Origin: Candidatus Hecatella orcuttiae
GTDB taxonomy: Archaea > Thermoproteota > Bathyarchaeia > Hecatellales > Hecatellaceae
Length of the DNA: 64,000 bases
NCBI GenBank assembly: GCA_002011035.2
Contig: MTLY02000003.1
Coordinates: 1 to 64,000, forward strand
Reading direction: 5' to 3'
Below, piece after piece: positions 822 through 6,177 of this stretch; position 1 is the stretch's first letter, and the number at the start of each line of letters is the position of its first letter. The notes below the pieces were generated by a model. It searched no databases and was not told where the DNA came from. It was given only the letters and a program-made list of their open reading frames with translations. A program made the translations under genes and the position numbers.

Positions 822-2880
822 AACGAGAACCCGACATGATACGCTGCCTGGTGGATAGCTGGGCTCAGGCGCTGAGGAAGGGCGTGGCAAGCTGCGATAA
901 GCCCCGGGTAGGCGCAAGCGGCCTTCGATCCGGGGATGCCCGAATGGGAATCCCACCGCTGGACTTCGGTCCAACGGTGCTCCTTCACGGAGCGGGAACC
1001 CCCCGAAGTGAAGCATCTCATTAGGGGGAGGAAAAGAAACTAACTAGGATTCCCCTAGTAGCGGCGAGCGAAAAGGGAACAGCTCAAACCGAAGACCGTG
1101 GAGAAATCCGCGGCCGATGTGGGGTTGCGGAGCCGACTGCCTCCTAACCGGCGAAGCTGAAGTGGCATGGAAAGGCCTGCCGGAGAGGGTGATAGCCCCG
1201 TAAGCGTAAGCTGGAAGGAGTTGGGTCGGCTTCCTGAGTAGCATACCTTGGTTTTGGTATGCGAAGCTGGGAGAAACCAACTTCCAAAGCTAAATACGTC
1301 CTGAGACCGATAGCGCACTAGTACGGTGACGGAAAGCTGAAAAGGACCCCGGAAGGGGTGTGAAAAGAGCTTGAAACCAGGCAGCTACACCGCGCACCGG
1401 CCTGAAAGGGTGGATTCCAGCCAAAGGAATCCGCGGCAACGCGGAGGACGAGGCTGGAGGACCAGGGTCGGGCGTTCCGTCTAGAAACACGGGCCGGGGA
1501 GTTCACGGCTGTGGCGAGCTTAAGGCTGTCAACGCCGAAGGCGCAGGGAAACCGACAGGCCTGCAGCCGAGCTTAGGCTCGGTGAGGGGCGAGGTCTGAA
1601 AGGGCCTGGAGTCACAGCTGTGAGACTAGAAGCCGGGCGATCTAGCCCTGGGTAGGGTGAAGCCGGGCGAAAGCCCGGTGGAGGCCCGCAAGGGTGCTGA
1701 CGTGCAATTCGCTCCCCTAACCTGGGGCTAGGGGCTAAAGACCAATCTAGCCCGGAGATAGCTAGTTCCCTCCGAAGTGGGTCGCAGCCCAGTCCCCCCG
1801 GAGGCTGTTGAGGGGGTAGAGCACTGATTGGGAAGCAAGGGATCGAAAGGTCCCACTTTCCTTTCAAACTCCGAATCCCTCAACGTCGGAGAAGGGGGGA
1901 AACGGGTTCCAGGGGGTAAGCTCCTGGACCGAGAGGGGGACAACCCAGACTGAGGTTAAGGCCCCCAAATGCCAGCTAAACGTCAAACCAAAGGGCGTTC
2001 TTGGCCTAAAACAGCGGGAAGGTTGGCTTAGAGGCAGCCATCCTTTAAAGAGTGCGTAACAGCTCACCCGCCGAGGCCAGGAGCCCCGAAAATGGACGGG
2101 GCTAAGCTGGCTGCCGATACCTCAGGGTGCAACTTAGGTTGCAACCTGGTAGGAGGGCGTCCTGACTGGGGAGAAGTTGAGCTGTGAAGTTCAATGGACC
2201 GGTCAGGAGTGCAGATCCCGGTGGTAGTAACAGCCAAGAGGGGTGAGAATCCCCTCCGCCGAAGGGGCCAGGGTTCCCCGGCAACACGTCGTTGGCCGGG
2301 GGTAAGCCGGTCCTAAGGTCTAGCTTAACCGCGACAGACCGAAAGGGAAACCGGTTAATATTCCGGTGCCTGCAGGATACCATGCGGCAACGCAGGCCTA
2401 GCCTCTGACACTTCAAGGTAGGGGAAGCAGGGTCGTCGCCCTGTTTAACCGGCCGAGGGCCGGGGAGCGCCGTAATGGCGAGAACCGGTTCGAGGCGGGA
2501 ATAGCCGCCCCCTTTAGGGCGGTTTCCCCGATCCTTGGAGTCAATGAAAAGGAGGCTGGGAAAGGGGATTCCTGCAGACCGTACCGAGAACCGACACTGG
2601 TGCCCTAGGTGAGAAGCCTCAGGTGTGTCGGGTGTACTCCGGGGCGAGGGAACTCGGCAAAATAGCCCCGTAACTTCGGGATAAGGGGTGCCTGCCGTTT
2701 CGGCTTCGGCTGGAACAGCAGGTCGCAGTGACAAGGGGGTCCCGACTGTTTACTAAAAACGTAGGGAGCCGCAAGCCCGAAAGGGTGTGTACGGCTCTTG
2801 AATCCTGGCCAGTGACGGTACCTGAAACTCGGGTACAACCGAGCTAAGGGCCGTTAAACGCCGGGAGTAACTCTGACTCT

Positions 2881-3664
2881 CGAGCTTAAAGGGAGTCGTT
2901 AAACCCGGCTGTATGCTGGGAAACCGGAACCCAGCGCCCCCGAGAGAGGGAAAAGAGCGTTGGGCGTTGAAGGTGACCAGCAGGGAACCACCCTCCAGAA
3001 AGCCACAAAAACTGCGCATGCAACACCATAACAGGGCGTGAGAGTCCATGGTGCTCCATGAGTTCAGTGACCTAGCCGACGTTAAGGCGCTGCCGAAACG
3101 CCGCAAATACCTAGCCTACTACCTAGCTGGCTTCGCCGACGGTGAAGGCTGCTTTTCAATCTCAGTCAAAAGGCAGAATGACACAAAATTCGGATGGGTC
3201 GTCGACCCTGTCTTCCATGTGACGCAGCATAAAGACAACCGGCTGGTGTTGGAGTTGTTTCGGAGAATGCTGCAATGCGGTCGAATAATATCGAAGCCGG
3301 GCCAGGAGAACCTTCTCCAATACGTTGTCGACAACAGAAGGCAGCTGAAAGAAAAGGTCATACCTTTCTTCAGAAAGCATCGCCTCCTAGCCAAAGCCAA
3401 GGCCTTCAGCTTCTTCGCCGAGGTGGTGGAAAACCTTGAAAAGGGAGCTCATAGAAAAGCGTCGAGTTTCAAAGAGCTCATAAGAAACGTTTACGAGCAC
3501 TCCGCCGACCGAAAACATGAGCTTGACGGTATACTGAAGGAGATCGATGAAAGGGTGGACGCCTCAGAGACCATACGCCGGGCACCCCAAAGCCAGCCTT
3601 CAGCCTAGAAGGTTGGGGTGAAGATATGGTCCAGTATCCCCATTTCCCAAGATGGTGGATGTTG
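2881..3664 (+). mobile_element. Group I intron in 23S rRNA at L1923 (E. coli numbering)
   Basis: Removal restores TAACTCTGACTCT|CTTAAGGTAGCC. 5' exon ends in U, paired U.G in P1 (GACTCT/GGAGTC). Intron ends in G. P3 CCCGGC/GCCGGG, P4 TGCTGG/CCAGCA, P7 GACCAT/ATGGTC and P8 CACCCCAA/TTGGGGTG are all present. Confidence 0.95.
3048..3608 (+). CDS. Intron-encoded single-motif LAGLIDADG homing endonuclease
   Basis: YLAGFADGEGCFSI motif, F.VTQ, LQYVV and VIPFF..H.L..K elements; 186 aa, lies inside the intron. Confidence 0.95.
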   Translation: MVLHEFSDLADVKALPKRRKYLAYYLAGFADGEGCFSISVKRQNDTKFGWVVDPVFHVTQHKDNRLVLELFRRMLQCGRIISKPGQENLLQYVVDNRRQLKEKVIPFFRKHRLLAKAKAFSFFAEVVENLEKGAHRKASSFKELIRNVYEHSADRKHELDGILKEIDERVDASETIRRAPQSQPSA

Positions 3665-4317
3665 CTTAAGGTAGCCAAATGCCTTGTCGGGTAAGTTCCG
3701 ACGTGCATGAATGGAACAACGAGGGCCCCGCTGTCCCCGCCCGGAACCCGGTGAAGCCACATAACTTGGACGAACAGTCCAGGAACTTCCAACGGGGAGA
3801 GAAGACCCCGTGGAGCTTTACTGCAGCTTGTCGTTGGGGCATGGCTCTGGATGCAGAGCGTAGGCGGGAGCCGTTGACCTTGGCTTCTCCGGGAGCCTTG
3901 GGAGGCGCCGATGGAACACCGCCCTTCTGGGGCTGTGTCCCTAACCGGGGCTTGGGCCTCGGGACACCGGCAGGTGGGCAGTTTGGCTGGGGCGGCACTC
4001 CCTTAAAAAGATATCAAGGGAGCCCAAAGCTCGGCTCAACCGGGACAGGAATCCGGTGTAGAGGGCAAGGCCAAAAGCCGGGCTGACTGGATTCTTAAAA
4101 GCAGAGAATCCAGAGGCGAAAGCCGGGCCTAGCGATCCTTCATGTCCCCCTTGGTGGGGGCTGGAGGTGACAGAAAAGTTACCCCGGGGATAACAGACTC
4201 GTCGCGGGTGAGAGTCCCCATCGACCCCGCGGTTTGGTACCTCGATGTCGGCCCTTCCCATCCTGGCAGTGCAGCAGCTGCCAAGGGCGGGGCTGCTCGC
4301 CCATTAAAGGGGAACGC

Positions 4318-4350
<33 letters not shown>

Positions 4351-4806
4351 ACTCTACCTGTTGGAAGTGTTGGCCGCCTGAGGGGAAGGTGCCCTCAGTA
4401 CGAGAGGAACGGGGTGTCGCAGCCTACAGTTTACCGGTTGTCCGACAGGGCAAACGCCGGGCAGCCGCGCTGTCGGGGATAAGAGCTGAAAGCATCTAAG
4501 CTCGAAGCCCCTCCCGAAAATAGGCGGCCATTTCGCGGCCTACGCCGGCTTGGCAACAGGGCTGGTTGCCGCGAACGAGGGCTGGGGTAGAAGACCCCGT
4601 TGATGGAGTGGACGTGTACGCGCCAAGGCCTTCGGGCCGAGGCGTTCAGCGTGCCACCCCCAACCGCCCGAGGTGTCGGGTTTAAGTGCGAAGCTACGTC
4701 TGGGCGAAAAATCCTCTGCACGGCGAGTGCTCTTTTTTACCAGGTTTTTCTCTGCGCTTTTCCTTCTTGGGGGAAAGCTTAACTGGGAGGGTTGAGCTGT
4801 TCTTTT

Positions 4807-5120
4807 GGGTTGGCGAGCAGGTGGGCGACTTCCCAGCCCCTAGGAGGGGTTGGAGGAAACTCCGCTCACACGGTGGAGCTCGCGGTGCCGCAAGGCATAG
4901 GACGAGAGTCCTAACCCCAGAGCAGAAACGGAATGTCCCAGCCTGGCATGGCGATGGGGCGTGCTAAGTCGCCGAGGACGGGCTGGGAAGCATTGAAACG
5001 GCTGCTTCGCGAGGTGCAAGGGCGAATAGGCGTCGATGAACCTCCACCTGAGACGCGGGTGGCCCGCGTAGCCGCATGTCGCCTAAAACAGAAAGCGGGT
5101 TACGGCCTGCACGCCAACCC
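4807..5120 (+). ncRNA. rnpB: RNase P RNA (archaeal type A-like)
   Basis: P1 GGGTTGGCG..CGCCAACCC; CR-I GAGGAAACTCCGCT; GGTGCAAG; CR-V AAAACAGAAAGCGGGTTA; P6 GGTGGAG/CTCCACC; TATA-like AAAGCTTAAC about 25 nt upstream. Confidence 0.93.
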
Positions 5121-5225
5121 ATCAAATGCATACGCCAACTTTCGGTTTGAAGCATTCACCCAAAGAATCCTAGAACTCAATTTTTTGTTTTGTTTCTTTC
5201 CTAAAGCTGAACTAGCTTTTCATTG

Positions 5226-5429
5226 TTAAACCATAAACACGAAATAAAGGAGAATTAACACAGTTGCAACAATTCCACTTATAATGTAAGCGATTTTCTT
5301 GCGTTTTTCCCTTTTATGTGTCCAGGTGTACGGATGACGCATATTGGGGGACAATTTAATTTCGTTTACACCTGGAACAGAGTAAGTGTCAACTAACCAC
5401 TCACTCAGCTTCTTCTTTTTCTTTGTCAA
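5226..5429 (-). CDS. Small hypothetical protein with C-terminal transmembrane helix, in AT-rich patch
   Basis: 67-aa ORF, basic stretch followed by hydrophobic IAYIISGIVATVLILLYFVFMV. Confidence 0.5.
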   Translation of the reverse strand: MTKKKKKLSEWLVDTYSVPGVNEIKLSPNMRHPYTWTHKREKRKKIAYIISGIVATVLILLYFVFMV

Positions 5430-5643
5430 TCCTTAAGCATCATCCTCTTGAGATTAATATAAATCCAAAGGCGTATATTTTTTATGCGTGGTCATAAGCA
5501 GTTTGGTTTAGTCCGATTTGGCTATACCTACTTCAGTTTCACTGCTTCCTTATTTTTTATAAGGACAGTTAACATAGTAAACCTATTTCTCCTTCCATTG
5601 ATGTTAAATCCAGAAAGCTGGTCGAAGGCGGAGGTTTGGGGAG

Positions 5644-6177
5644 TTGAACGGTGAGCATCCCCCCGTCAAGCTTTACGCCTACATGCTGGAGCAGGATGAC
5701 CCTCGGAAGTGCACCTCCGCCAAGCTGCTCAGGTTCCACCTAGCCCGGGGGATAAGGCGGGCTTCCCAGCTTCCTCGGCAGGCGGTTCTCCTAGACCCCT
5801 CGTCCCCTGTCCCCTTGGCCTCCGAAGACAGGCCGAGGGTGGAGCGGTGGGGCCTCGTAGCCGTGGACTGCTCTTGGAACAGGGTGGAGGAGGTCTTCAC
5901 CCGGAGGCTCCGAGGCGTAGGCCGGCGTCTCCCCTTCCTGGTGGCGGCTAACCCTGTCAACTACGGGCAGCCTGGAAAACTGAGCTCCTTGGAGGCCTTG
6001 GCCGCTGCGCTTCACATCCTAGGCTTCAAGGCTGAAGGCGAGCGGCTTCTGGCCCTTTACAAGTGGGGCTCCAGCTTTCTCTCCCTCAACCGGGAGCTGC
6101 TGGAAGCCTACCGCCAAGCTGGAAGCCGGGAGGAGGTCTTGAGGCTTGAGGAATCCTACCGCCCAGCCCCGGCTTAG
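5644..6177 (+). CDS. tsr3: 16S rRNA aminocarboxypropyltransferase Tsr3 (DUF367)
   Basis: QDDPRKCTSAKL, DCSW, RRLPFLVAANPVNYG, KLSSLEALAAAL, KWG.SFL.LN. Confidence 0.93.
   Translation: MNGEHPPVKLYAYMLEQDDPRKCTSAKLLRFHLARGIRRASQLPRQAVLLDPSSPVPLASEDRPRVERWGLVAVDCSWNRVEEVFTRRLRGVGRRLPFLVAANPVNYGQPGKLSSLEALAAALHILGFKAEGERLLALYKWGSSFLSLNRELLEAYRQAGSREEVLRLEESYRPAPA

What the first reader, a model, noticed from the sequence alone, without database searches (positions are those of the whole stretch)
2881..3664. Self-splicing group I intron with intact homing endonuclease in an archaeal 23S rRNA (L1923)
Seen: this is a full group I core rather than the usual archaeal BHB intron. It has P1 with a U.G pair at 2880/2892, P3, P4, a P7 variant GACCAT/ATGGTC, P8, P9 and terminal G3664, and excision restores a perfect H69-H71 sequence. 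Established: L1923 is the I-CeuI-type site known from organelles and bacteria, and archaeal group I introns are known mostly from computational surveys. Inference: a mobile, possibly thermostable ribozyme, IB-like because no P2 is evident.
Basis: partly seen in the sequence, partly recalled or inferred. Interest (0 to 1): 0.72.

Follow-up and report, generated by a model that had tools for sequence, protein, structure and literature searches.

The report
Archaeal 23S group I intron, known
The 784-base insert in this uncultured archaeon's large ribosomal RNA gene is a real group I intron that likely splices itself out and carries an intact gene for a predicted DNA-cutting mobility enzyme, but introns of this subtype at this exact site were already catalogued in archaea in 2018, so it is a correct but fairly ordinary find.

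Summary
Confirmed. Window 2881-3664 is a group I intron after LSU position 1923. P1 (U2880·G2892), P3-P9, P10, the G3569-C3631 guanosine site and terminal G3664 are present. Across 24 homologous introns 97% of cells pair, with 92 two-sided changes against 23 in shuffles. Models built without the window score both halves (115 and 85 bits). Ten intron-less relatives are continuous at this junction. There is no BHB stem, unlike nine L1927 BHB controls. A 186-aa single-motif LAGLIDADG gene starts in L6 and keeps its catalytic residues.

It is not new in kind. Nawrocki 2018 lists nine archaeal LSU/1923 IB4 introns, and a source sequence there has the same P7 variant. This scan also reported one earlier in another genome. 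New here: a probable Bathyarchaeia host; 17 carriers among 401 genomes of the phylum; related endonucleases in BHB introns 4 nt away that likely share the target. This copy lacks the TATA-like box seen in 13 of 14 close relatives. The assembly's second, intron-less operon looks foreign. Splicing, homing and thermostability were not shown.

The parts
827..4683 (+). Archaeal 23S rRNA host gene, interrupted once
   Evidence: RF02540, 2710 bits
2881..3664 (+). Group I intron (subtype IB4) after LSU position 1923, 784 nt
2874..2898 (+). P1: exon end paired with the internal guide sequence; U2880·G2892 marks the 5' splice site
   Evidence: U·G in 24 of 24; exon and guide change together in 10 of 24 at 2878/2894
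2885..2891 (+). Guide strand of P10 (pairs with 3' exon 3665-3670, one bulge)
   Evidence: pairs read from the sequence; conservation not counted
2904..2909 (+). P3 5' strand (pairs 3577-3582)
   Evidence: all 6 pairs formed in 24 of 24, with compensatory changes
2914..2982 (+). P4 (2914-2919/2977-2982) enclosing P5, P5a and P5b
   Evidence: U-A/G-C switch at 2917/2979, 14 versus 10; folds at 60-70 C
2983..2994 (+). P6 and P6a 5' strands (pair 3552-3564); the ORF starts in loop L6
3004..3011 (+). CACAAAAA, near where 13 of 14 close relatives have a TATA-like YTTWWA; possible lost internal promoter
   Evidence: inference
3033..3041 (+). Shine-Dalgarno-like AGGGCGTGA (7 of 9 match) before the ORF
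   Evidence: consensus recalled
3048..3608 (+). Single-motif LAGLIDADG endonuclease gene (P0001, 186 aa); its 3' end overlaps P6a, P6, P7, P3 and P8
   Evidence: PF00961 68.7 bits; I-Vdi141I E 2.3e-22, I-CeuI E 1.5e-18; E33, Q60, K116
3567..3632 (+). P7 (3567-3574/3626-3632) with guanosine-binding pair G3569-C3631, P3 3' strand and P8 (3583-3620)
   Evidence: G3569-C3631 and G3567-C3632 in 24 of 24
3633..3664 (+). P9.0, P9 and terminal G3664
   Evidence: terminal G in 27 of 27
3665..3670 (+). Start of 3' exon; P10 partner and right part of the split endonuclease target

Best explanation
This is a subtype IB4 group I intron at LSU position 1923 whose RNA likely removes itself from the 23S precursor and whose intact LAGLIDADG gene is predicted to spread it by homing. 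Shown by sequence and comparison: a complete conserved core, the splice-site U·G, the G-binding pair, the terminal G, the exact junction and an endonuclease ORF with its catalytic residues. Inferred from established group I chemistry: a free guanosine bound in P7 attacks the bond after U2880; P10 aligns the 3' exon; U2880 then attacks after G3664, restoring helices 69-71. Inferred for mobility: P0001 forms a homodimer and cuts the intron-less site CTGACTCTCTTAAGGTAGCCAA, and repair from an intron-bearing copy transfers the intron, which splits the site. The protein is likely translated from the excised intron RNA through the Shine-Dalgarno-like site, as this copy has no clear internal TATA box. 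The host is likely a moderately thermophilic Bathyarchaeia archaeon.
For: Covariation across 24 homologous introns. Covariance models built without the window give 115 bits (E 5e-24) for the 5' core and 84.9 bits (E 3e-18) for the 3' core, and hit none of 9 BHB introns or the intron-less loci. Motifs around P3/P4, P6 and P7 match the GISSD IB4 rows, including its L1923 rows (by eye). A source sequence in the Nawrocki 2018 supplement, by position the one holding IB4.11, has the same P7 and a 3' end nearly identical to L001. The endonuclease departs from consensus at only 2 of 48 conserved columns. The empty site matches the I-Vdi141I target at 23 of 24 bases. Distribution is patchy: the two same-family genomes with assembled 23S, G001 and G002, are empty, and sisters G015 and G022 differ. 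Contigs with no differences cover parts of the intron in runs of two studies not flagged as the source (X6, X7).
Against: No RNA run holds this organism (RNA rows share 0.07 of words), so splicing was not observed. Generic Rfam is below threshold, and the GISSD IB4 model could not be run. My models come from loci found through the endonuclease, so they test family membership, not activity. P9 has no GNRA loop. P4, P5 and P6 have only moderate or low pairing probability at 37 C in silico (0.05-0.45). No intron-minus allele of the same sequence was seen (contigs drop rare variants). The single-sequence structure model was uninformative (pLDDT 48.7).
Confidence: 0.82

Rival explanations
1. Same group I intron, but splicing at growth temperature needs a protein, either P0001 acting as a maturase or a host RNA chaperone, so it is not self-splicing on its own.
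For: A review passage reports maturase-like activity for the LAGLIDADG protein of the Thermotoga neapolitana 23S intron at high temperature (PMC3984707). The modelled core weakens from -87.5 kcal/mol at 37 C to -26 at 70 C. L9 has no GNRA loop.
Against: The core stems are G-C rich (22 of 30 pairs), and the unconstrained 70 C fold recovers P1, P3, most of P4, P5, P6, P6a, P8 and most of P9. Relative L001 persists with the catalytic glutamate changed, which bears on cutting, not on maturase function.
Confidence: 0.1
2. The intron is catalytically dead or stays unspliced, leaving an interrupted or fragmented 23S, or this operon is unused and the intron-less C2 operon supplies the ribosomes.
For: An unspliced 23S group I intron has been reported in Chlamydiales (reference title only). 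The assembly holds a second, intron-less operon.
Against: All invariant core positions are kept. The insert sits in helix 69, whose deletion is described as dominant lethal (PMC2602781 passage). The C2 operon is 79% identical, falls outside the host's class in the 23S tree, and brings duplicate RNase P and tsr3 genes at GC3 0.25, so it is probably foreign.
Confidence: 0.05
3. It is a BHB intron cut out by the tRNA splicing endonuclease, and the group I motifs are remnants.
For: The genome encodes two EndA subunits. Homologous endonucleases sit in true BHB introns 4 nt away at L1927.
Against: The intron's ends form no stem: -9.5 kcal/mol (range -7 to -21 in 27 L1923 introns) against -29 to -53 in 9 L1927 BHB introns. 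No BHB forms at the junction. The core covaries rather than decays.
Confidence: 0.02
4. The intron belongs to another organism and was joined to this rRNA gene by misassembly.
For: The assembly appears chimeric at its other rRNA operon.
Against: One contig with no differences spans 2718-3974 at about the depth of the upstream exon contig (326 versus 298, run X1, a possible source), and another crosses the 5' junction in the unflagged run X6. The guide sequence is complementary to this host's exon. The ORF's GC3 of 0.63 equals the genome median. The flanking 23S groups with same-family genomes at 100% support.
Confidence: 0.01

Closest known systems
Archaeal IB4 group I introns at LSU/1923 (Nawrocki, Jones and Eddy 2018, PMC6125680: IB4.7, .9, .11, .13, .17, .18, .20, .21, .28)
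   Same: Same site, subtype motifs, absence of P2 and LAGLIDADG gene. The supplement's source sequence that by position holds IB4.11 has the same GACCAT/ATGGTC P7.
   Different: The host here is likely Bathyarchaeia, a group not named in that table. Sequence identity to the nearest homologue found is 66%. Neither that paper nor this work tested splicing.
I-CeuI and its Chlamydomonas eugametos chloroplast LSU 1923 intron
   Same: Homodimeric single-motif LAGLIDADG enzyme for the n.1923 target (PMC3315327 passage); P0001 matches PDB 2ex5 at E 1.5e-18; L1923 organellar rows are in the IB4 alignment.
   Different: Organellar host, and a different left half-site (recalled: ACGGT versus ACTCT here).
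I-Vdi141I and the archaeal L1927 introns (PMC2602781, PDB 3e54)
   Same: Best-scoring single-motif endonuclease in the PDB search (E 2.3e-22). Its 24-bp target equals this host's empty site at 23 of 24 bases.
   Different: It sits in an intron 4 nt downstream. The nine L1927 introns I examined are BHB type, with a long terminal stem and no group I core, and their enzymes form a separate clade (8 in the tree).
Thermotoga, Synechococcus, Coxiella and Simkania 23S group I introns (L1917, L1931, L1951, L2593)
   Same: [quoted passage not shown]
   Different: Bacterial hosts and other sites. That 2007 table has no L1923 entry, though bacterial MAG loci L006, L011, L014, L018 and L029 carry L1923 introns.

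Membership tests
Group I intron | P1 with U·G pair at the 5' splice site | tested here: met
   U2880·G2892; U·G in 24 of 24, with exon and guide co-changing
Group I intron | P3-P7-P8 and P4-P5-P6 domains with covarying pairs | tested here: met
   97.4% paired, 92 two-sided changes versus 22.7 in shuffles
Group I intron | Guanosine-binding G-C pair with bulged A in P7, and terminal G | tested here: met
   G3569-C3631 in 24 of 24; terminal G in 27 of 27
Group I intron | Covariance-model hit | tested here: inconclusive
   Rfam RF00028 21.1 bits, below the 50-bit gathering score; Nawrocki 2018 also found no significant archaeal hit with it. Custom models without the window give 115 and 84.9 bits but come from related loci.
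Group I intron | G-dependent two-step self-splicing | not testable with these tools
   No RNA run of this organism
Subtype IB4 | IB4 core motifs, P5 extension, no insertion between P7 and P3 | tested here: met
   Compared by eye with GISSD IB4 rows and the consensus structure line; P7 leads to P3 within 2 nt
Subtype IB4 | P2 absent (typical of IC2, IA1 and IB4 per PMC1995217) | tested here: met
   6 nt between P1 and P3; only L004 of 24 has an extra hairpin-sized insert there
Subtype IB4 | Best score to the GISSD IB4 model among the 14 subtypes | not testable with these tools
   The models are in the paper's supplement but cannot be run here
Archaeal BHB intron | Bulge-helix-bulge at the exon-intron junctions, with a terminal intron stem | tested here: not met
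   End-to-end duplex -9.5 kcal/mol versus -29 to -53 in 9 controls; no BHB fold
Single-motif LAGLIDADG homing endonuclease | LAGLIDADG_1 domain, one motif, about 160-190 aa | tested here: met
   PF00961 68.7 bits, cut-off 23.1; LAGFADGEG at 26-34
Single-motif LAGLIDADG homing endonuclease | Metal-binding acidic residue plus conserved Gln and Lys | tested here: met
   E33, Q60 and K116 present and conserved; roles assigned from recalled I-CreI/I-CeuI numbering
Single-motif LAGLIDADG homing endonuclease | Cleaves the intron-less site and drives homing | not testable with these tools
   Only indirect: target identity with I-Vdi141I and patchy distribution

The most novel reading that the evidence does not exclude
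In this archaeal phylum two chemically unrelated introns, a group I ribozyme at L1923 and a protein-spliced BHB intron at L1927, carry homologous endonucleases and compete for one 22-24 bp rDNA target, so whichever arrives first blocks the other. The Thermoproteota-type L1923 lineage has also gained an archaeal TATA promoter inside L6, which this copy has lost. This would give a living test system for exchange between group I and BHB introns, and a candidate for the first demonstrated, heat-stable archaeal self-splicing rRNA ribozyme.
Probability: 0.35. Interest if true: 0.55.

Novelty: new member of a known kind. Interest (0 to 1): 0.28.

Why it matters
As a single intron it adds a probable new host class (Bathyarchaeia) to a family described in 2018, and shows that L1923 group I introns are not rare in this phylum (17 of 401 genomes by endonuclease match, against 9 with L1927 BHB introns). 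My five searches of the held library aimed at archaeal group I introns showed no experimental test of one, judged from listings and from the papers I read. A compact, G-C-rich core from a likely moderate thermophile is therefore a reasonable first substrate. The shared target with I-Vdi141I-type BHB introns makes the proposed link between group I and BHB introns testable with purified enzymes.

Tried and rejected
Rfam at gathering threshold found no intron; at E-value threshold only a sub-threshold 3' hit. Single-sequence AlphaFold of P0001 gave pLDDT 48.7 and was not used or searched. The pair-count tool was not run on alignment A1; the same measures were computed in a script. The P3 pair 2911-3576 and P5b (poorly aligned) were left out of that count. 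Read depth across the C2 operon could not be obtained, so its foreign origin rests on composition, duplicated genes and the tree only. I rejected C2 as a true intron-minus allele for those reasons; tiaS in the C2 tail has no second copy in the assembly, which keeps some doubt. Decay of the endonuclease was considered because of the missing TATA box and rejected (2 of 48 conserved columns differ). The TATA scoring matrix was seeded on the same motif, so only presence counts (13 of 14, versus 22% of 764 native upstream regions) are informative, and the relatives are not independent. Recent long-range transfer is not supported: GC3 matches the host, and the endonuclease tree is a quick tree with open forks, midpoint-rooted, with no clade test, so no donor or direction is claimed. 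No locus held both L1923 and L1927 introns, but at these frequencies that is expected by chance. Nesbo and Doolittle 2003 is not held. Searches for Bathyarchaeia or Bathyarchaeota with rRNA introns gave 0 and 2 papers; the one read by passages does not mention group I introns, and the other was seen only as a listing.

Full report
Observation. The window begins inside an archaeal 16S gene (1-651), followed by a 23S gene (827-4683) and RNase P RNA (4813-5114). The 23S gene holds one 784-nt insert, 2881-3664. Its removal restores ...GTAACTCTGACTCT|CTTAAGGTAGCC, which is position 1923 in E. coli numbering (numbering from my own knowledge). Among 41 genomes searched, 14 matched: 10 are continuous at this junction, 3 including G000 carry the insert, and G003 gave only divergent fragments and was set aside. 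In public contigs one record with no differences spans 2718-3974 (X1, a possible source). Others with no differences cover parts of the intron in X6 and X7, from studies not flagged as the source. The insert is real.

Anatomy. P1 pairs the exon end with 2891-2898 and places U2880 opposite G2892. P3, P4, P5 with two extensions, P6, P6a, P7, P8, P9.0, P9 and P10 can all be written. Unconstrained folding of the core at 70 C recovers most of the nested helices. I collected 27 L1923 introns including the window and aligned 24, leaving out three long double-motif ones. Over 35 pairs, 97.4% of cells pair and 92 change on both sides; 1000 shuffles gave 86.0% and 22.7, none reaching the observed values, and slid partners gave 34-44%. 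The shuffle ignores relatedness, but the pattern is specific: exon and guide sequence change together, and P3, P4 and P7 switch pair types. G3569-C3631 and the U·G pair are invariant. Generic Rfam RF00028 reaches only 21.1 bits, as expected from Nawrocki et al., who had no significant archaeal hit with it. Models built from 21-22 relatives without the window score the halves at 115 and 84.9 bits and hit none of nine BHB introns.

Endonuclease. ORF 3048-3608 starts in L6 and runs through P6, P7 and P3 to a stop in L8. It is a single-motif LAGLIDADG protein, related to I-Vdi141I (E 2.3e-22) and I-CeuI (E 1.5e-18). E33, Q60 and K116 are kept, and only 2 of 48 conserved columns differ. The empty site equals the published I-Vdi141I substrate at 23 of 24 bases (PMC2602781 section 9), and I-CeuI is described as cutting the n.1923 site (PMC3315327 passage). 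In 13 of 14 archaeal relatives with a long L6 spacer a YTTWWA hexamer lies 27-51 nt before the start codon, against 22% of 764 native upstream regions. The window has CACAAAAA near that place but a 7-of-9 Shine-Dalgarno match. I read this as an internal promoter in relatives and translation from excised intron RNA here; both are inference.

BHB control. Of 401 genomes of the phylum, 27 match P0001 at E 1e-10 or better. By their flanks 17 are L1923 group I (two partial, three with double-motif genes), 9 are inserts at L1927 and 1 is a group I-like intron a few bases further on. The L1927 inserts fold into a BHB with a long stem (-29 to -53 kcal/mol) and lack the ordered group I motifs; the window's ends give -9.5. 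The host does encode EndA, but this intron offers it no substrate.

Host and assembly. The window's 23S groups with same-family G001 and G002, both empty. A named Bathyarchaeia locus groups with five same-class genomes, and the nearest Atlas cluster for the adjacent Tsr3 is mostly Bathyarchaeota, so the host is likely Bathyarchaeia. There is no reverse gyrase over the cut-off. IVYWREL of 0.429 (about 67 C by a recalled formula) and 61% rRNA GC suggest moderate thermophily. G000 holds a second, intron-less operon on C2. It is 79% identical in 23S and falls outside the host's class in a quick tree. It is followed by a second RNase P, a second tsr3 (44% identical, GC3 0.25, below the genome's 1st percentile) and an AT-rich tail, and C3 begins at a point inside its 16S. 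I judge it a chimeric join (about 85%), not a sister allele; read depth could not be checked.

Mechanism. Most likely standard group I splicing: guanosine attack after U2880, P10 alignment, exon ligation at G3664. Spread would be by endonuclease-initiated homing. Structure, junction and intact ORF are shown; catalysis, expression, cleavage and homing are inferred. Patchy occupancy among sisters fits gain and loss cycles. Host-like GC3 argues against a recent distant import. Intron-less relatives occur in the same samples (X6, X7).

Comparison with what is known. I read the main text of Nawrocki 2018 (parts 1-3 of 4) and parts and searches of its supplement, which is cut and did not show the expanded table. 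Nine of its 39 introns are IB4 at LSU/1923, none assigned to Bathyarchaeota. A source sequence there, by position the record of IB4.11, has the same P7 variant and a 3' core almost identical to L001. The window's motifs match the GISSD IB4 rows by eye. PMC3984707, PMC1995217, PMC11270868, PMC3315327, PMC12918454 and PMC13748971 were seen as passages; PMC2602781 as passages plus section 9. Searches showed no experimental test of an archaeal group I intron; the library lacks most subscription papers.

Verdict. It is a new member of a known kind. Interest 0.28, raised slightly by the new host class, the untested activity of the whole archaeal set, and the shared target with L1927 BHB introns.

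Noticed in passing
G000:C2:464353-481129 (L081, L032): Second rRNA operon, 79% identical in 23S and empty at L1923, with a roughly 664-nt 16S insert encoding a LAGLIDADG_3-like ORF, a second RNase P, a second tsr3 and an AT-rich tail. Probably a foreign piece joined inside the 16S where C3 begins; other findings on this tail should be read with care.
   Followed up: partly
L070-L072, L074-L079: Nine L1927 BHB introns whose endonucleases are homologous to P0001 (36-47% identity); G287 (group I) and G322 (BHB) belong to one family.
   Followed up: yes
window 3004-3041; L001, L003, L007, L035, L036, L055-L057, L059-L062, L064, L065: TATA-like hexamer in L6 upstream of the endonuclease gene in 13 of 14 relatives, absent in the window; L002, L004 and L014 instead have strong Shine-Dalgarno matches (8 of 9).
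   Followed up: partly
L067, L069, L073: L1923 group I introns of 1132-1137 nt with a double-length endonuclease; the two halves fall in different parts of the quick tree on long branches.
   Followed up: partly
L001:3001-3546: The Nitrosocaldus homologue has Ala at the catalytic glutamate and 12 of 52 conserved columns changed: possibly a decaying endonuclease in an intact intron.
   Followed up: partly
L083:4535-4894; also L007, L065, L067, L075, L079: Another insert about 125 nt upstream of L1923 in the 23S gene, present in same-family G002 and several others; type not examined.
   Followed up: no
L006, L008, L011, L014, L018, L029: Bacterial MAG records (Aquificaceae, Thermosynechococcus, Bipolaricaulota and others) hold the same L1923 intron family; the L006 and L008 endonucleases are nearly identical across two phyla, which may be transfer or mis-binning.
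   Followed up: no
L010: Two group I introns in tandem in helix 69 (an upstream one and L1923), both hit by the custom models.
   Followed up: no
window 4813-6177: RNase P RNA and tsr3 follow the 23S gene directly; RNase P also follows the 23S in G002 and in the C2 operon.
   Followed up: no
G000:C1 start and C2 start: C1 and C2 begin with homologous genes (about 77% identical over 1.4 kb), and C1 and C3 share a 98-nt end at 89%.
   Followed up: no
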